Shown: positions 4,511 to 22,531 of the stretch, piece after piece
Layout of the letters: every line of letters begins with the position of its first letter
How positions within the stretch are numbered: the first letter of the stretch is position 1
Virus record (IMG/VR): IMGVR_UViG_3300010376_000114
Span: 1-26,829 of that record
From: a virus
Taxonomy: Duplodnaviria > Caudoviricetes
Direction: 5' to 3' (one strand)
Length of the DNA stretch: 26,829 nt
Program-made: the position numbers and the translations under genes
Notes under the pieces: generated by a model
Database searches by the model: none
Told to the model about the DNA's origin: nothing
Seen by the model: the letters and a program-made list of their open reading frames with translations, nothing else

Positions 4511-4992
4511 TCGTCAAGACCTGGGCCTGCCTCAATCGCAACTGCCTCAAGGTCTACGACTCGACCGCAGGCGAGTTCCCGCCCTGCCCGCGCTGCGGCA
4601 TGATCCGGGTGAAGTGGGTGCCGCGGCCGGTGGCGATCAAGAGCGAGCGCACCAAGCAGATCGATGCCACGGTCAAGGAGTTGAAGGAGACCTATGGGTA
4701 TAAAAATTACCGTTCTCCGGTACGCGGTCAAGCTGCCGCCGCCACCACCAATCGCCCAGCTGGATCGCGCGCTCAGCGCTTTGTGCCCAAGGGGTATGAA
4801 GGGTGGGGCGCCGATGTTCCCCTGGACGCGAATGGTAATTTCACCGCCCACTGTGCGCCGACCGGTGTCACGGCCAAGCTCAAGGTCGAGCAGGGACAGC
4901 GAGCTAGTACGACGCGCGTTGGCGATCGAACGATTGGGGTCGGCGGCAACGTCGAATACTCGCACCGGCCGGCTGGAGGCGTCCCCAAGTGA
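4507..4992 (+). CDS. Zn-ribbon protein (FmdB-like N-terminus)
   Basis: RBS GGGAGG, GTG start; WACLNRNC...CPRCG; coupled to the portal by GTGA. Confidence 0.7.
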   Translation: MIVKTWACLNRNCLKVYDSTAGEFPPCPRCGMIRVKWVPRPVAIKSERTKQIDATVKELKETYGYKNYRSPVRGQAAAATTNRPAGSRAQRFVPKGYEGWGADVPLDANGNFTAHCAPTGVTAKLKVEQGQRASTTRVGDRTIGVGGNVEYSHRPAGGVPK

Positions 4993-6716
4993 TCATCCCG
5001 CGCACCAAAAAGTACCGTGACAACACGATCGACGAGATCGCCGAGCTTTGCCTCGGCAGCAAGCGCGACCGTGAGGAGCTATACCTCATGCGTAAGCGCT
5101 ATTTCCACTTCGGCACTGCCGACTATAACATAGAATGCAAGTACAATCGCCTGCAGGCGCATCTCGATCTGGTCTCCTCCTTCCTGTTCGCGCCCGATCA
5201 CTGCCGCTACAACATCGCCGCCCCGCGCAACGCCGCTGATGCGATCATCGAGCAGATCGAGGCGGTGGCGGACGAGTGGAACGACACCTTCCGCGACTCC
5301 GGCCTTGCCGACCTGTTCGCCGACTCGGTGCTGTGGGCGCTGATCCTCGACTCCACCATCATCAAGCTTGGATGGAATGACGCGCGTGAAGAGTTGTTCG
5401 GGAAAATGATATTCCCGTCCGACTTCGCGGTCTATGACGAGACCGAGCCCGATCTCGACTCGCAGGAAGCCTTCGTCCACACCTACTCTCTCAACTGGGA
5501 CAACGCGGTGCAGCGCCTCAAGCGCGCCGGCAAGATCAAGGAGATCAAGCAGCTGGCCCGCTACCCCGGGCAGTACAGCGAGTTTCGCGACCAGATGCCG
5601 CCGGTGCTGGCCAATATGCTGATCTCGCAGACCGGCGGCCCCAATCTCGCGGGCGCCATGGTCGGCCGGGTGAACGTCGATTTCCAGGCCTATGCCACCT
5701 ATCAGTCGGAGTCGAACAATCCGATGGTGCGTTTCCACGAGGTGTGGGTGTGGGATGACGATACCGACGACTACGCGATCTTCACCAAGGCCGACGGGGT
5801 GGATGGGGTCCTTTCCGACAGTCGCGAAACCATCGATGCCATGCGCAAGGCCGACGAGGCGCGCGCTTCCGAGCTTTATCGGGGCTCCTCCAACCTGTTC
5901 GGGATCGAGCAGGAGCACCCGTTCGTCCACGTGTGCCCCTATCGGCTGCATGATTTCTTCTGGGGCAAGGCTCACCTTGACATTTTGATACCGCTGCAGG
6001 TGTGGACCAACGAGCGCCTGCAGCAGATCGCCGACCTACTGGAGCAGAATGTTGATCCGACCAAGATCGGATCGGGCTTCATGGGGCTCACCGATGAGAA
6101 AATGGACGCGCTCGGCGGCGCCGGGAGCTTCGTCTACGACATGATCCCGGGCGCCAAGGTTGAGTTCGAGCGGCCGCCGGTGGTTCCCGACCTGTTTGCC
6201 GAGTTCAAGGAGATCGGTACGATCTTTTTGGAGGCCTCCGGCCTCACCGAGACCATCATGGGGCGCGGCGAACAGGGTATTCGCAGCGAAAAACAGGGCA
6301 AAAGAGCGGTCGCGACCGGCTCGGGACGGCTGCGCAAGGTCGCGGTCGGGCTGGAGGCACCTCTGGTGAAGATCGGCGATGTCGGATTGAAGCTCCTGCA
6401 GCGTAACTCCAAGGAGCGGCTGATCACCGACAGCGGCGCTTTGATGGTCCCAGCCCAGCTGGCGGAGCAGAAAATCAAGATGCGGGTCTCTGGTCACTCG
6501 CATTCTCCGCTGTTTGCCGACGAGGCCAAGGAGATGGCGGCTGGTCTGTTCAAGACCCAGGCGATCGACCGCTTCAGCCTGCTCGACATGACCGATCCGC
6601 CCAACAAGGACGAACTCAAGCACCGTCTGAAAAAGCGCGTAGCGGCGGAAAAGCAGGAGAAGCAGCAGCAGGCCGCGGCGCCAACCAAGCCTTCGCGGCC
6701 GCGCGCCGCTGCCTGA
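4989..6716 (+). CDS. Portal protein
   Basis: 575 aa, between TerL and the head genes. Portal-like segments include YNRLQAHLDLVSSFLF, IIKLGW, HPFVHVCPY..FFWGK and EASGLTETIMGRGEQGIRS. Confidence 0.88.
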   Translation: MIIPRTKKYRDNTIDEIAELCLGSKRDREELYLMRKRYFHFGTADYNIECKYNRLQAHLDLVSSFLFAPDHCRYNIAAPRNAADAIIEQIEAVADEWNDTFRDSGLADLFADSVLWALILDSTIIKLGWNDAREELFGKMIFPSDFAVYDETEPDLDSQEAFVHTYSLNWDNAVQRLKRAGKIKEIKQLARYPGQYSEFRDQMPPVLANMLISQTGGPNLAGAMVGRVNVDFQAYATYQSESNNPMVRFHEVWVWDDDTDDYAIFTKADGVDGVLSDSRETIDAMRKADEARASELYRGSSNLFGIEQEHPFVHVCPYRLHDFFWGKAHLDILIPLQVWTNERLQQIADLLEQNVDPTKIGSGFMGLTDEKMDALGGAGSFVYDMIPGAKVEFERPPVVPDLFAEFKEIGTIFLEASGLTETIMGRGEQGIRSEKQGKRAVATGSGRLRKVAVGLEAPLVKIGDVGLKLLQRNSKERLITDSGALMVPAQLAEQKIKMRVSGHSHSPLFADEAKEMAAGLFKTQAIDRFSLLDMTDPPNKDELKHRLKKRVAAEKQEKQQQAAAPTKPSRPRAAA

Positions 6717-6754
6717 TGTGTCATAATTGCTTCGGAGACGATTTGTAGTAGACT
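6716..6754 (+). promoter_or_regulatory. Promoter copy 1 (ATGTGTCATAAT box; -35 TTGCTT 6727-6732; -10 TAGACT 6749-6754) upstream of the Arg-rich micropeptide
   Basis: AT-rich intergenic segment; sigma70-like TTG...16 nt...TAnnnT; degenerate duplicate of 6894-6933. Confidence 0.6.
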
Positions 6755-6793
6755 GCATCTCCGGTACCAACCCGCAACAACCAGGAGGTACAG

Positions 6794-6832
6794 ATGGCAC
6801 GTCGTCGGCGTCATCGTCGCGGTCGCCGGTAA
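6794..6832 (+). CDS. Protamine-like micropeptide MARRRRHRRGRR (12 aa)
   Basis: A/C-rich leader CCCGCAACAACC, AGGAGG at 6783-6788, 5-nt spacer, then ATG GCA CGT CGT CGG CGT CAT CGT CGC GGT CGC CGG TAA. Promoter upstream, terminator downstream. Confidence 0.8.
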   Translation: MARRRRHRRGRR

Positions 6833-6860
6833 CGGCAAAGCGACATTCACCCCCAAGCAC

Positions 6861-6891
6861 GGCCCCCGCCCAGGCGGGGGTTTTCTTTTTT
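6861..6891 (+). terminator. Rho-independent terminator
   Basis: CCCCCGC(6863-6869)-CCAG-GCGGGGG(6874-6880) followed by TTTTCTTTTTT. Confidence 0.92.
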
Positions 6892-6893
6892 CC

Positions 6894-6933
6894 ATGTGTC
6901 ATAATGTACTTCGGTAAAATTTGGGCGTAGCTT
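6894..6933 (+). promoter_or_regulatory. Promoter copy 2 (ATGTGTCATAAT box; -10 TAGCTT 6928-6933) for the head operon
   Basis: Directly after the terminator; shares ATGTGTCATAAT, CTTCGG, ATTTG and GTAG blocks with 6716-6754. Confidence 0.6.
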
Positions 6934-6941
6934 CCCGCGCC

Positions 6942-7382
6942 ATGCCGCCGTTCCCTGCAACGCCGCCGATGGCTGGTGGATCAGCGCCTCCCGCGCTATC
7001 GCTTCCAAAGTCTCCAGCCGGCGGTCCAGCCGGGCCCGGCGCATCTCCGGCACTCAGCCCCGGTAAGGGTGCTGGGGCTGAGGCCGCTGCGATGGCGACA
7101 GTCAAAGCTGTGATCCCCGCGCTCACCAAGGAGTTGAACTCCTTCCCGATCGGCGACAAGCGTCGGCAGGCCCTGATGCGCGCCGTCACCGCGCTGGAGG
7201 CTCACTTCGGCAAGTCGGAGAACGAGGCCCTGACCGGAGCCTCGATGCAGCAGATGCAACAAGCAACAAAGATGGGGCAGGGGCTCCCGACTGGAAATCC
7301 AATGCCGCCCGGGATGTCACTCGGCGGACCCTCCCCGATAGGGCCGCCTCCCGGGTTGGCAGCAATGGCAGGAGGCATGTGA
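6942..7382 (+). CDS. Pro/Gly-rich head-region protein with a central helical core
   Basis: ATG 6942 with no SD (probably leaderless); low-complexity ends, central AMATVKAVIPALTKEL...ALMRAVTALEAHFG. Confidence 0.7.
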   Translation: MPPFPATPPMAGGSAPPALSLPKSPAGGPAGPGASPALSPGKGAGAEAAAMATVKAVIPALTKELNSFPIGDKRRQALMRAVTALEAHFGKSENEALTGASMQQMQQATKMGQGLPTGNPMPPGMSLGGPSPIGPPPGLAAMAGGM

Positions 7383-7579
7383 TGCCCGAGTCAACTTATC
7401 TCAAGCCGAAGGTTGCTTCCGGCAGCATGGGCGAGCGCAAGAAAAAGAACGGCATGTTCCAGAACATCCCGTCCTACCCGCAGCTGGGTGGATTTTCCAG
7501 CTCCTCCAAGGTGCCGGAGCGCGATCGGCCGATGGCGCTGGAGAAGGGCGATCTGGTGCGCAAGGGCAAGCCGGTGTGA
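7382..7579 (+). CDS. Small basic head-region protein (65 aa)
   Basis: RBS AGGAGG at about 7370-7375, TGATG overlap (alternative GTG 7379); Lys/Arg-rich. Confidence 0.75.
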   Translation: MPESTYLKPKVASGSMGERKKKNGMFQNIPSYPQLGGFSSSSKVPERDRPMALEKGDLVRKGKPV

Positions 7580-7583
7580 TCTG

Positions 7584-7940
7584 ATGGCGCGGCGTCGGGG
7601 CAAGCAGAACAACGGTGTCGATCGGGGGCGGCGGTTCTTCGAAACCTCCTCGCCGTTCGAGACCTATGAGCCCGGCGGCGAAGCGCCTGCGACCTACAAG
7701 GGCCTCACCGACACCAGCCTCAAGGTTTCCGATCGCCTGATCGACTCGATCGCGCCGGGTGCCGTCAAGGGCATGGTTGATGCCCAGCAATACGACAATC
7801 CGCGCGGCTTTCCTGGCCTCGCCATGGTGCAGTTCGGCGACGAGAAGCCGAAAATCCCGGTGCGCAGCTCCACGCACGAGATTGCCCACCAGCTGGAAGG
7901 CCAAGCCAAGCTCGCGCCCACCGGGAGACCAGGAAAATGA
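7584..7940 (+). CDS. Hypothetical head-region protein beginning MARRRGK (118 aa)
   Basis: ATG 7584 just after the upstream stop; ATGA overlap with the next gene; GC3-rich codons. Confidence 0.75.
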   Translation: MARRRGKQNNGVDRGRRFFETSSPFETYEPGGEAPATYKGLTDTSLKVSDRLIDSIAPGAVKGMVDAQQYDNPRGFPGLAMVQFGDEKPKIPVRSSTHEIAHQLEGQAKLAPTGRPGK

Positions 7941-8449
7941 CCCAGCAAATCCACCCACAGACGGCCATGGACCTTGCCAAGCTGATGCAGCGCATGGCCG
8001 GCAACCCCAAGACCCGATCGCGGCTCCTCGGGATGGTCAAGGAAACCGACCCCGGCTATCGGCTGCCCGCGGATGTCGCGATCGAGGCATTCAAGGCCGA
8101 GCAGAAGGCCGAGCGCGAGACCGAGCGCAGCAACTGGAACAAGGCGCAGCGCGAAGCGCGCTACAAGAAACAGCGCGCGGAGGCGGTCGCGAGCCACGGC
8201 GAGGACGAGGTCAAGAAAATCGAGGATACGGTCCTCAAGCGGTACCCGCACCTGGAGCTTGAAGATGCGGTCAAGCTGCATGCCGCTGATGCGTCGCCGG
8301 CAACACCGCGCGCTCGCGAACGTTCCAACCAGTTCCGCCATGGGGAACGTTGGACCTTTCCCTCTATTCCCGGTCTGTTGGAGAACCCCGACAGGGCAGC
8401 AAATGAGATGGCGCACAAGGTCATCGATGAGTTGCGCGGGGCAGCCTAA
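7937..8449 (+). CDS. Probable capsid scaffolding protein
   Basis: Immediately upstream of the capsid gene; charged, helical/coiled-coil (EAFKAEQKAERETERSNWNKAQRE). Confidence 0.65.
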   Translation: MTQQIHPQTAMDLAKLMQRMAGNPKTRSRLLGMVKETDPGYRLPADVAIEAFKAEQKAERETERSNWNKAQREARYKKQRAEAVASHGEDEVKKIEDTVLKRYPHLELEDAVKLHAADASPATPRARERSNQFRHGERWTFPSIPGLLENPDRAANEMAHKVIDELRGAA

Positions 8450-8465
8450 CTAAGGGAGTTGAGCA

Positions 8466-9473
8466 ATGCCGCAATTTGGCCAGGGCATCATACCGGCGCA
8501 AGGCGCTATCGCGGCCGAACTGGCGGCGGTCACCCGGCGCGCGTTCCTGCCCAAGGTGTTCGTGCAGCTGTGGAAGTCAACGCCCTGGATGGCGGCGATG
8601 CTTTCGCATGCGCAGGTGGCTTCCGGCGGCTTGTCGCCGATCACCGTGCCGCTGCAGGGCAACCCGATGGTGACGATCCAGAACGTCAGCTATGACGGAT
8701 CGTTCAACCAGCCGGGCACCACGCCGGGCCTGCAGAACGCGGAGTTCAACCTTAAGGGTTACCTGACCGCGATCCCGTTCCTCGGGTTCGAGGGTCTGGT
8801 GCAGCTGGATTACTCGGTGGTGCCGCTGATCGAAGCGCGCATGAACGATGCCACCAACGTGACGCTCGATCGCTTCTCGACCGACATGTACAATAACGTG
8901 TCAAATCTCCAGTCCATGATCGGACTCCCCGCCGCTGTCGATGACGGCACCTTCGCCGCCACATACGGCGGCATCAACCGGCCGAGCAACACCTTCTGGA
9001 AATCCACCTACGTCCACAACGGCGGCCCCACCACCCCCACCCGCAATCTGATGCTCCAGTACATCGCACAGGTGACGAAGGTGACGGGCGAGATACCGAA
9101 GATGGGCCTGATGGGTTTCGGGACCTGGACAAACCTCGCTCAGGATTTTACCCCGAACGAACGTTATGTAGTCACTCCGTCCCAGCCATTCGGTGAAGGC
9201 AAAGTTGAAGCCCTGTTCCGCGCACTCGACGTAGCAGGTGTCCCCTTCTACCCAGACCCGTATTGTCCCGAAGGGACCCTCTATCTGCTCAACACCGACT
9301 ACCTTTCGCTTTACGTCCATGAGCGGGCCTCCTTCTATTTCACCGGGTTCGAGTCAACGCTCGCGAACGGCCAGTTCGGCTATATCGGTGCCCTGCTCAC
9401 GCTCCTGGAGATGGTCGACGTCAAGTGCAAGGCGCACGGCAAGTTCGACAACATTGCGTTCCTGAACATCTAA
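8466..9473 (+). CDS. Major capsid protein (HK97 fold expected)
   Basis: RBS AAGGGAG; 335 aa; follows the scaffold. Segments ELAAVTRRAFLPKVFVQL, IGLPAAVDDGT..TYGGINR..TFWKS and PDPYCPEGTLYLLNTDYL are typical of podovirus capsid proteins. Confidence 0.88.
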   Translation: MPQFGQGIIPAQGAIAAELAAVTRRAFLPKVFVQLWKSTPWMAAMLSHAQVASGGLSPITVPLQGNPMVTIQNVSYDGSFNQPGTTPGLQNAEFNLKGYLTAIPFLGFEGLVQLDYSVVPLIEARMNDATNVTLDRFSTDMYNNVSNLQSMIGLPAAVDDGTFAATYGGINRPSNTFWKSTYVHNGGPTTPTRNLMLQYIAQVTKVTGEIPKMGLMGFGTWTNLAQDFTPNERYVVTPSQPFGEGKVEALFRALDVAGVPFYPDPYCPEGTLYLLNTDYLSLYVHERASFYFTGFESTLANGQFGYIGALLTLLEMVDVKCKAHGKFDNIAFLNI

Positions 9474-14165: not shown

Positions 14166-14519
14166 ATGCCACTGTTCTTTCACGATATTGTTCTCCCCAA
14201 GGATACCACTGGATTTTCGATCTGGCTGCAGGAGCATTATTTGGAGCACCAGCAGTTCGTTTCAATATTCCAGGGTCGCTCCCCGGTTATTTTTATTCCA
14301 GATTACAACTTCGCCCTATGGGGCGACGATCGCAAGGTGATCGCGGCTTGGCTGGAGGCGCATGAGGCGACGCATCAAGCGCTGCGGACACAGACCAATG
14401 TTTCTGGTATAGACCTTGCAGACGTCGATCTGAGCAAGGAGGACGAATGGTTCTCGTGGATGGACAGTCACGCATCGGAGCATGCGGACATACGATCAGC
14501 GTTGGGGATCATCATCTGA
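14166..14519 (+). CDS. His/Trp-rich hypothetical protein (117 aa)
   Basis: ATG 14166 after a 68-nt A-rich gap; three repeats of W-x3-H-x3-H (WLQEHYLEH, WLEAHEATH, WMDSHASEH). Confidence 0.8.
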   Translation: MPLFFHDIVLPKDTTGFSIWLQEHYLEHQQFVSIFQGRSPVIFIPDYNFALWGDDRKVIAAWLEAHEATHQALRTQTNVSGIDLADVDLSKEDEWFSWMDSHASEHADIRSALGIII

Positions 14520-14521
14520 GC

Positions 14522-14977
14522 GTGCAGGTCGAACCGCTGCGGCCGGATACGATCCCGGCTTGGATGTTCGGCGACCACGTCGAGGAGAGTTGCCCAAACA
14601 AGGAGGTTTTTAAGCTCAAACCTGACTGGGCCTATTACTTTCGCGAGCAGCGCGAGGGGCGCTTCTTTATGGTTAGTGCGCGCAACGAGAACTGGGACAT
14701 TGTCGGCTATGTCGGCATGTTCATCCGCCCACACCATCACTACAGCGACGTCGTCATGGCGACCGACGACCTGCACTATCTTCTCCCCGCCTACCGCGGC
14801 CAAAAGCTCGGAGCGTTCATGCTGGCGTTCGCCGAGAAGGTGGCGGCTGAGAAGGGGGCGTCGATCTTTCTGATGCGCTGCAAGGCTAATCAGCCGCACG
14901 GAAAAATCTTCGAAGATATGGGCTACAAGCTCACTGATCTCACCTACCTGAAGGATATCCGCAATGCGCGCGCGTGA
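14522..14977 (+). CDS. GNAT-family acetyltransferase
   Basis: Probable GTG start at 14522; acetyl-CoA motif A YLLPAYRGQKLGAFML, AEKVAAEKGA and C-terminal IFEDMGY. Confidence 0.85.
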   Translation: MQVEPLRPDTIPAWMFGDHVEESCPNKEVFKLKPDWAYYFREQREGRFFMVSARNENWDIVGYVGMFIRPHHHYSDVVMATDDLHYLLPAYRGQKLGAFMLAFAEKVAAEKGASIFLMRCKANQPHGKIFEDMGYKLTDLTYLKDIRNARA

Positions 14978-21900: not shown

Positions 21901-22344
21901 ATGAAAACCTTAGAGCGCTTCCCGGGCCTTGTCGCCCTGGCTCTGGTTGCTGTGATCGTTGGCGGCTTCGCGTTGGCCGTGAAAAACGCCCCGCGCGTCG
22001 ATTTCATCAAATACGCCAACGCCCAGCCGACCATCCTCAGCCCCAACGTCTACTTCTACTCCGCCGTTACCACGGCCCAGCAGCTGATCGGCGCCAACCC
22101 GTCACGTCACGGTTTACAGATTTGCAACTCGGGCGGCACTAACGCGCTCTGGATCATGCCCAACATCGCCACCATCAATACCGGCGCGGTGGTAGCTCCC
22201 GCCGCCAACGTCGGCATCCCGGTGCCAGCCATCGCCTCGAACGTGGCCTCCTGCTTCTCGCCGCCGACCAATGCGCCTTCGGTTGGCCAAGCGTGGCAGG
22301 GCTTCTCCACCACCACACCGGTCACCGTCCTGGAGTATCCATGA
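21901..22344 (+). CDS. Signal-peptide/TM-anchored beta-sandwich protein
   Basis: RBS GGGAG, ATG 21901; hydrophobic LVALALVAVIVGGFALAV; possible ANA-Q cleavage site; domain LIGANPSRHGLQICNSG..LWI. Confidence 0.75.
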   Translation: MKTLERFPGLVALALVAVIVGGFALAVKNAPRVDFIKYANAQPTILSPNVYFYSAVTTAQQLIGANPSRHGLQICNSGGTNALWIMPNIATINTGAVVAPAANVGIPVPAIASNVASCFSPPTNAPSVGQAWQGFSTTTPVTVLEYP

Positions 22345-22382
22345 TGCGCAAGCGCAAGGGTCGGCGGGGGCGCCGCTACTGA
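22341..22382 (+). CDS. Protamine-like micropeptide MMRKRKGRRGRRY (13 aa; 12 aa if started at 22344)
   Basis: GGAG at 22332-22335; start overlaps the upstream stop (ATGATG) and stop overlaps the downstream start (TGATG), exactly filling the gap. Confidence 0.78.
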   Translation: MMRKRKGRRGRRY

Positions 22383-22531
22383 TGCCACTCGCTTCCGGGT
22401 CATCGCCCGCGGTCCGTAGCCGCAACATCCGCGAGATGATCCGCGCCGGCCATCCGCGCCGGCAGGCGGTGGCGGCGGCCTTCCGCAAGGCACGCGAGAG
22501 CAAACGGCGCGGCCGCAGGGGGCGACGATGA
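22382..22531 (+). CDS. Small basic protein (49 aa), MPLxxGSS..NIRE..xGxPxxQAVAxA type, with KRRGRRGRR tail
   Basis: TGATG and ATGA coupling at the two ends; the N-terminal pattern resembles a small basic protein family common in phage structural regions. Confidence 0.85.
   Translation: MPLASGSSPAVRSRNIREMIRAGHPRRQAVAAAFRKARESKRRGRRGRR

What the first reader, a model, noticed from the sequence alone, without database searches (positions are those of the whole stretch)
6716..6891. Stand-alone expression cassette for a 12-aa protamine-like peptide (MARRRRHRRGRR) between the portal and head genes
Seen: the gap after the portal gene contains a promoter-like element, an unstructured A/C-rich leader, a perfect AGGAGG RBS, a 12-codon ORF with 8 Arg and the strongest intrinsic terminator in the window. 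Half of the Arg codons are CGT and Gly is GGT, unlike the GC3-rich neighbours. Established: short Arg-cluster peptides (fish and mammalian protamines, adenovirus core peptide mu, baculovirus P6.9) condense DNA, and CGT/GGT are favoured in highly expressed bacterial genes. Inference: the phage devotes a monocistronic, highly expressed unit to a protamine-like peptide that neutralises or condenses DNA in the capsid or during packaging. Gene callers miss ORFs this short, so it may be undescribed. An alternative is an Arg-sensing leader peptide, but I see no good antiterminator and a second promoter follows the terminator.
Basis: partly seen in the sequence, partly recalled or inferred. Interest (0 to 1): 0.93.

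Follow-up and report, generated by a model that had tools for sequence, protein, structure and literature searches.

The report
Phage micro-gene for a polycation peptide
This uncultured tailed phage and its relatives keep an unannotated 12-codon gene, with a predicted promoter and terminator of its own, for an almost pure arginine or lysine peptide that likely binds DNA as a home-made counter-ion during head assembly, a role not described for phages that pump their DNA in with a motor and not yet tested.

Summary
The gene is real. Window 6794-6832 encodes MARRRRHRRGRR behind AGGAGGT, followed by the window's strongest terminator; 0 of 200 shuffles give such an ORF. The upstream gene folds as a podophage portal.

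Of 80 distinct relatives chosen by portal alone, 73 carry such a micro-ORF within 1 kb of the portal (opposite strand: 2). Four more carry it further off or at the portal end, two with an ATA start, one extended. Eleven DNA versions encode the identical peptide. Low-GC relatives swap half the Arg for Lys at a constant charge near +8. Of 99 pattern hits in 185,579 prokaryote genomes, one was convincing, beside a portal.

An Arg-sensing attenuator is rejected: no antiterminator, and two phages carry the whole cassette inverted.

Best reading: a bulk-made nucleic-acid-binding polycation. Packaging in the head is inferred only (about 0.5). It lacks the capsid anchor of microvirus J/VP8, and full condensation would block ejection.

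My literature searches found no description, but this scan reported the same family on other genomes at least four times.

The parts
4989..6716 (+). Portal protein gene (575 aa), upstream neighbour
   Evidence: AlphaFold model pLDDT 83.8; Foldseek best hits SU10, Pan3, T7 portals, E 3.5e-16
6716..6727 (+). 12-mer ATGTGTCATAAT, repeated exactly at 6894-6905; candidate shared regulator site abutting the -35 box
   Evidence: A shared 9-14-mer at p<=0.025 was found in 5 of 22 close loci; function inferred
6727..6754 (+). Predicted sigma70-type promoter TTGCTT-16-TAGACT
   Evidence: rough matrix, 9.0 against about 1.7 for controls; not found by the stricter scan
6783..6789 (+). Shine-Dalgarno AGGAGGT after an A/C-rich leader
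   Evidence: GGAG core nearly invariant in 22 aligned cassettes
6794..6832 (+). Micro-gene MARRRRHRRGRR (12 aa, +8; 1.53 kDa if Met is removed)
   Evidence: conservation
6861..6891 (+). Intrinsic terminator, predicted constitutive
   Evidence: a terminator-like hairpin follows the ORF in most close relatives
6894..6933 (+). Second copy of the 12-mer and predicted promoter (GTACTT-16-TAGCTT) for the head operon, probably giving a leaderless transcript
   Evidence: TAnnn[T/G] lies 4-9 nt before the next start in 12 of 24 loci (background 99 of 1900) and 16 of 24 have no SD
6942..9473 (+). Head operon: Pro/Gly-rich ORF, two small basic ORFs, scaffold-like ORF (by position only) and major capsid protein (8466-9473)
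   Evidence: (phrog_9953, E 6e-26)
22341..22382 (+). Second basic micro-ORF MMRKRKGRRGRRY, overlapping both neighbours (ATGA, TGATG)
   Evidence: a like gene MRMRRGSRRGRRY with its own SD in G006; none seen at this place in 5 other genomes examined
22382..22531 (+). phrog_2423 small basic gene ending in an Arg tail (KRRGRRGRR)
   Evidence: its G001 homologue ends in RRHRRGRR, the micro-gene's own motif

Best explanation
The stretch is a self-contained gene for a 12-residue, +8 peptide that is likely made in bulk late in infection and likely acts as a sequence-independent counter-ion that partly neutralises phage DNA during head filling and in the virion. Shown: the gene exists, is under selection as protein, is confined to this phage group's virion gene block, and charge rather than Arg identity is what is kept. 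Inferred: transcription from its own sigma70-type promoter, co-regulated with the head operon through the repeated 12-mer; Met removal before Ala2 (recalled rule); DNA binding; entry into the head, either dragged in on the DNA or through shell pores. Partial screening would lower motor load and head pressure without jamming ejection. About 1,100 copies per virion would neutralise 10% of a 43-kb genome, under a tenth of the residues of a T=7 shell.
For: Conservation: 73 of 80 portal-selected loci within 1 kb, 2 of 80 on the opposite strand; the other 7 are accounted for. Eleven loci picked for the identical peptide are 11 different DNA sequences, with pairwise differences 76/0/299 at codon positions 1/2/3 and stops in another frame. 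118 peptides hold 0 Asp/Glu in 1368 residues; R/(R+K) is 0.90 in high-GC and 0.52 in low-GC phages, mean charge 8.1 and 7.6. Context-blind scans: 61 of 71 viral hits are real, 56 near portal or capsid and 5 beside tail genes; 60 of 76 metagenome hits are real, 52 with a head-gene hit; 1 convincing of 99 in GTDB genomes, beside a portal. All 14 near-complete genomes read have one on the virion strand inside the terminase-to-tail block. Copy number varies from one to arrays, as for a bulk reagent. Penta-arginine enters herpes capsids and condenses their DNA (PMC7377361, passages).
Against: No expression, proteomic or virion data. No C-terminal hydrophobic anchor like that of J/VP8 (PMC11281519) and no targeting propeptide in the typical form, so no loading route is evident. 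Motor-packaging phages are described as lacking such basic segments (PMC7096446), and polycations that condense packaged DNA jam ejection (PMC7377361). T4's basic internal proteins were assumed to bind DNA, yet IPI is an anti-restriction protein (PMC9026906). L005 and L006 have an ATA start and L007 a GTG, so lower output seems tolerated. Gene number does not rise with genome size: two genes in 35-kb G012, one in 63-kb G013. His-Arg-Arg-Gly is kept across the high-GC branch, more than charge alone would need.
Confidence: 0.5

Rival explanations
1. The peptide is a cytoplasmic or co-ejected polycation that coats phage DNA, host nucleoid or ribosomes, shielding the genome from nucleases and sensors or damping host gene expression, with no structural role in the head.
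For: Own sigma70-type promoter, TTGACA-type in many low-GC relatives, usable at any stage. The cassette is found inverted (L384, L455) and moved to the tail region. No capsid anchor. IPI precedent.
Against: In 14 of 14 genomes the convincing copies lie in the virion block, none in the replication region. The promoter motif is shared with the head operon. Near-universal retention is unlike the patchy spread usual for counter-defence genes (recalled).
Confidence: 0.25
2. The peptide is a head-assembly cofactor that binds acidic surfaces of portal, scaffold or coat rather than DNA.
For: Usually the first gene before the head operon and stays with it when the portal is on the other strand (L122, L394, L429, L432). 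Portal (72 K/R, 87 D/E) and coat (19, 25) are net acidic. Conserved HRRG core.
Against: Free Arg/Lys exchange and length variation fit no defined interface. G010 and G015 carry the array among tail genes, and G010 shows none between portal and capsid.
Confidence: 0.1
3. The peptide is an arginine-rich RNA-binding motif (lambda N, Nun or Tat type; recalled) that recognises the leader hairpin of its own mRNA or another phage RNA.
For: A 5-bp hairpin upstream of the SD covaries: 70.8% of cells paired against 57.0 shuffled, 10 double changes against 2.7, 0 of 500 shuffles.
Against: The hairpin is missing in this genome and L002 although the peptide is identical. Its loop varies. The peptide has no effector region. 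A 5' hairpin is more simply an mRNA stabiliser (inference). The helix was read off the alignment, which favours it.
Confidence: 0.07
4. The peptide is a cationic outer-membrane disruptor that helps lysis, like phiKT gp28.
For: Small and cationic; gp28 is a phage-encoded precedent (10.1101/515445, passages).
Against: gp28 is 56 aa, amphipathic and inside the lysis cassette. These peptides have about 0.4% Leu/Ile/Val/Phe and no Trp, and lie about 6 kb or more from the endolysin in the window, G001 and G005. Spanin content was not tested.
Confidence: 0.04
5. The ORF is an arginine-sensing leader peptide that controls read-through into the head operon.
For: Short Arg-run ORF followed by a terminator upstream of an operon; rare Arg codons occur (38 of 219 AGA/AGG/CGA in high-GC phages).
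Against: The terminator stays formed (P>=0.94) at all four modelled ribosome positions in 19 of 21 loci; L029 and L034 gave inconsistent values. Stop-to-stem distance ranges 15-85 nt. Lys replaces half the Arg in 50 loci. The cassette is inverted in L384 and L455 with nothing to control. The next gene has its own promoter signature.
Confidence: 0.02

Closest known systems
Microviridae DNA-binding proteins J (phiX174, G4, alpha3) and VP8 (SpV4, phiEC6098)
   Same: Small, separately encoded Arg/Lys-rich phage peptide tied to packaging (PMC11281519, passages).
   Different: SpV4 VP8 is 38 aa with a C-terminal Phe buried in the capsid, in a T=1 ssDNA phage. This peptide is 10-16 aa, has no hydrophobic anchor, and belongs to a portal-and-terminase dsDNA phage.
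Phage T4 internal proteins IPI, IPII, IPIII
   Same: Small basic phage proteins, about 300-370 copies per head, binding DNA at low salt (PMC9026906, passages).
   Different: 8-20 kDa, loaded through a 10-residue cleaved targeting sequence, poorly conserved; IPI is folded and inhibits restriction enzymes. The typical peptide here has no leader, though L100 and L254 carry a 10-11-residue non-basic leader.
Protamines, adenovirus mu/pVII, baculovirus P6.9
   Same: Arg clusters without acidic residues; DNA condensation in a particle (abstract listings for pVII and P6.9; mu and protamines recalled).
   Different: Eukaryotic and mostly longer; controlled by phosphorylation or proteolysis (recalled). 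No homology is implied, and half of the relatives here are Lys-rich.
Host polyamines used as counter-ions by tailed phages
   Same: Predicted same physical job: screening packaged DNA (spermine in lambda, PMC7377361 passage; use in vivo recalled).
   Different: Small metabolites from the host, not a ribosome-made product with its own phage gene.
phiKT gp28 disruptin
   Same: Phage-encoded cationic peptide.
   Different: 56 aa, amphipathic, membrane-bound, in the lysis cassette.

Membership tests
Microviridae J/VP8 | Small Arg/Lys-rich peptide with its own gene | tested here: met
Microviridae J/VP8 | C-terminal hydrophobic residue buried in the capsid protein | tested here: not met
   Peptides end almost always in R or K; Leu/Ile/Val/Phe about 0.4%, no Trp; feature from PMC11281519
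Microviridae J/VP8 | T=1 ssDNA microvirus context | tested here: not met
   Terminase, portal and major head protein of a tailed phage
Microviridae J/VP8 | Present inside the virion | not testable with these tools
   No cultured member found
T4 internal proteins | N-terminal 10-residue targeting propeptide removed by the head protease | tested here: not met
   The whole peptide is 12 aa and basic from residue 3; leaders seen only in L100 and L254; no head protease hit among the 26 window proteins scanned
Protamine / P6.9 / mu type condensing peptides | Arg clusters, no acidic residues | tested here: met
   8 of 12 Arg here; 0 Asp/Glu in 1368 residues
Protamine / P6.9 / mu type condensing peptides | Condenses DNA in the particle | not testable with these tools
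   Needs synthetic peptide and virions
Amino-acid-sensing attenuator leader | Antiterminator that depends on ribosome position | tested here: not met
   no switch in 19 of 21 loci
Amino-acid-sensing attenuator leader | Same strand and upstream of the controlled operon; one sensed amino acid | tested here: not met
   Inverted in L384 and L455; Arg/Lys mixed
Disruptin (phiKT gp28) | Amphipathic helix encoded in the lysis cassette | tested here: not met
Known RNA family | Rfam match at gathering score | tested here: not met
   0 matches in the window

The most novel reading that the evidence does not exclude
A large, widespread group of tailed phages encodes its own counter-ion: an 11-residue ribosome-made polycation, a genetic substitute for polyamines, packed in hundreds to thousands of copies to tune head pressure. 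The same Arg motif is reused as a tail on other small virion-module proteins, possibly as a loading tag.
Probability: 0.4. Interest if true: 0.92.

Novelty: new variant of a known kind. Interest (0 to 1): 0.78.

Why it matters
Tailed phages are described as packing DNA by motor force without basic packaging peptides (PMC7096446). A gene for a free polycation kept across a group with roughly 2,400 stored portal-matching stretches (estimate) would add a genetically encoded control over packaging force, virion stability and ejection, testable with a synthetic 11-mer. It is also among the shortest phage genes under clear selection and is invisible to gene callers and tryptic proteomics. The two GenBank relatives each carry two such genes unannotated, under spurious opposite-strand ORFs.

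Tried and rejected
RNA evidence: no RNA holder listed; no reads were laid. Sequence searches did not identify the portal; the fold did. The consensus promoter scan missed both putative promoters. A shared exact motif before both promoters was significant in only 5 of 22 close loci. The first hairpin count was one column off and showed nothing; corrected. The named phages with distant capsid, portal or terminase similarity (Jasmine, Mx9, Shocker, Hydrogenobaculum phage 1) show no convincing micro-gene of this kind in the stretches read. No host could be assigned: the only genome hit is a 40-kb contig binned in a Pseudolabrys MAG, a weak hint. L173 passed the composition filter but has no phage-gene hit and was treated as chance. 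A non-coding RNA reading was rejected on codon-position variation and Rfam. No complex prediction was run, since the peptide is under 30 residues. One search gave no hits through a bad option and was rerun. PMC10893049 (passages) and PMC11323111 (term search) added nothing. The 2022 global phage small-gene catalogue (recalled) was not held, so it and other smORF catalogues and their supplements may list these sequences.

Full report
Observation. ATG at 6794 opens MARRRRHRRGRR*, behind AGGAGGT (6783-6789), followed by a 9-pair hairpin and T run (6861-6891). That hairpin is the most stable T-tailed hairpin in the window, and no AGGAGG-led ORF of this kind appeared in 200 dinucleotide shuffles. 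The upstream 575-aa gene had no family or PDB sequence hit, but its model (pLDDT 83.8) matches podophage portals. Terminase and major head protein genes flank the region. The window is a 26.8-kb piece of a tailed phage; close relatives are 40-45 kb.

The gene is under selection. I took loci found with portal or capsid queries and two GenBank records, removed near-duplicates, and set aside 19 with under 1 kb after the portal stop (12 of these show the ORF anyway). Of the 80 left, 73 have an RBS-led or coupled 8-30-codon ORF with at least 45% Lys/Arg within 1 kb on the portal strand; 2 have one on the other strand. Of the other 7, L028, L246 and L250 have it further on and L029 at the portal end. 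L005 and L006 have the full cassette with an ATA start, and L254 has a 21-aa form. These loci are not independent: the tool returns the best 80 hits, and 50 belong to one low-GC branch. The most distant branches were reached mostly through the peptide pattern itself, so prevalence there is unknown. Eleven loci chosen for the identical peptide are 11 different DNA sequences, differing 76, 0 and 299 times at codon positions 1, 2 and 3. Length changes are whole codons and all three stops occur.

What is conserved. Among 118 peptides from 77 loci there is no Asp or Glu in 1368 residues and almost no large hydrophobic residue. Arg makes up 0.90 of the basic residues in high-GC phages and 0.52 in low-GC ones, while mean charge stays at 8.1 and 7.6 (the filter demanded 45% K/R but said nothing about acids). 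CGT is enriched over the portal genes (81 of 219 against 104 of 1203), but the window's capsid gene uses CGT in 1 of 9 Arg codons, so this is ambiguous as a sign of high expression.

It belongs to this phage group. A pattern scan blind to context gave 71 viral loci, 61 of them real micro-genes: 56 near a portal or capsid homologue and 5 beside tail-gene homologues. In metagenomes 60 of 76 were real, 52 with a head-gene hit and 8 on contigs under 2 kb. In 185,579 prokaryote genomes, 99 matches gave one convincing case, beside a portal on a 40-kb contig binned as Pseudolabrys, and one likely chance hit. All 14 near-complete genomes I read (three only to base 39,800; four found through the peptide) have a copy on the virion strand between terminase and tail genes. 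Low-GC relatives usually have two genes. One branch has chained arrays after a tail gene, and in G010 none lies between portal and capsid. Two GenBank phages from a spring carry two unannotated copies each. Four named, more distant phages show none.

The cassette stands alone. In L384 and L455 the whole unit is inverted between portal and head genes, its terminator facing the portal; in L122, L394, L429 and L432 the portal is on the other strand and the micro-gene heads the capsid block. Sigma70-like scores are higher upstream and downstream of the unit than in coding controls, with plain TTGACA boxes in many low-GC loci (weights from memory). In the window the same 12-mer precedes both putative promoters, though only 5 of 22 close loci show a significant shared word. 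The next gene often looks leaderless: a -10-like hexamer 4-9 nt before its start in 12 of 24 loci against a 5% background. A covarying hairpin sits in the leader of most close relatives but is missing here and in L002.

Attenuation is rejected. The terminator stays formed at every modelled ribosome position in 19 of 21 loci, two giving inconsistent values. The stop-to-stem distance varies, Lys substitutes for Arg, and inverted cassettes have nothing downstream to control.

Mechanism. A charge-conserved, hydrophobe-free peptide with flexible copy number, fixed in the virion block, is best read as a bulk nucleic-acid-binding polycation. Whether it works inside the head is inference. Penta-arginine does enter herpes capsids and condense DNA, but the same paper reports that condensation jams ejection, also in lambda (PMC7377361, passages), so only partial screening is plausible. 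Against packaging: no capsid anchor or targeting leader, ATA and GTG starts in three loci, no scaling with genome size, and T4 IPI as a warning that a basic head protein can do something else (PMC9026906, passages). I put the head counter-ion reading at 0.5, a cytoplasmic or co-ejected DNA shield at 0.25, an assembly cofactor at 0.1, and the rest below that.

Known relatives and novelty. It works most like microvirus J/VP8 but fails their defining anchor and context (PMC11281519, passages). A survey of capsid charge sets motor-packaging phages apart as lacking such basic segments (PMC7096446, passages); it examined capsid proteins, not unannotated micro-genes. Nine literature searches returned listings and one targeted T4; none showed this family. 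The library lacks most subscription papers and the 2022 phage small-gene catalogue, and I read no supplements. This scan's own notes report the same kind of micro-gene after the portal on other genomes (e1-2918045, e1-3754308, e1-6017123, e1-5993924). They agree with my reading but are not independent support.

Verdict. A real, conserved, apparently undescribed phage micro-gene family; function likely polycationic nucleic-acid binding, site of action open. New variant of a known kind; interest 0.78.

Noticed in passing
window 22341-22531: A second basic micro-ORF (MMRKRKGRRGRRY) is coupled to a phrog_2423 gene with an Arg tail; the G001 homologue of that gene ends in RRHRRGRR, and another small-protein family in G002 and G003 also ends in RRGRRG.
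   Followed up: partly
L005 and L006, after the portal: Complete cassettes with perfect SD, intact Arg codons and terminator but an ATA start codon, in two separate sub-lineages.
   Followed up: partly
L384:1721-1772 and L455:1049-1101: The whole promoter-ORF-terminator unit is inverted relative to portal and head genes, back to back with the head operon.
   Followed up: yes
G010:C1:21689-22310 and G015:C1:17069-17762: Chains of six or seven translationally coupled basic ORFs (11-73 aa) after a tail gene; similar in L071, L076, L082, L100.
   Followed up: partly
L100 (3421 on) and L254 (6630 on): Variants with a 10-11-residue non-basic leader ending in Asn before the Arg run (MADELEVLVKN, MIINDVLSAN), possibly a cleavable propeptide.
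   Followed up: no
window 6942-7382: The Pro/Gly-rich first gene of the head operon appears leaderless in about half of close relatives.
   Followed up: partly
window 7379-7579: A 66-aa basic ORF of no known family is as well conserved as the capsid among close relatives (60-89% identity; motif FQNxxSYPxLGGF, C-terminal RKGKP).
   Followed up: no
window 14447-14977: An acetyltransferase gene (phrog_1249) lies inside the virion block and is kept in 7 of the 14 genomes read; whether it could modify basic peptides is unexplored.
   Followed up: no
L239 and L240 (MW202825, MW202753): GenBank annotation places opposite-strand hypothetical ORFs over the two real micro-genes.
   Followed up: yes
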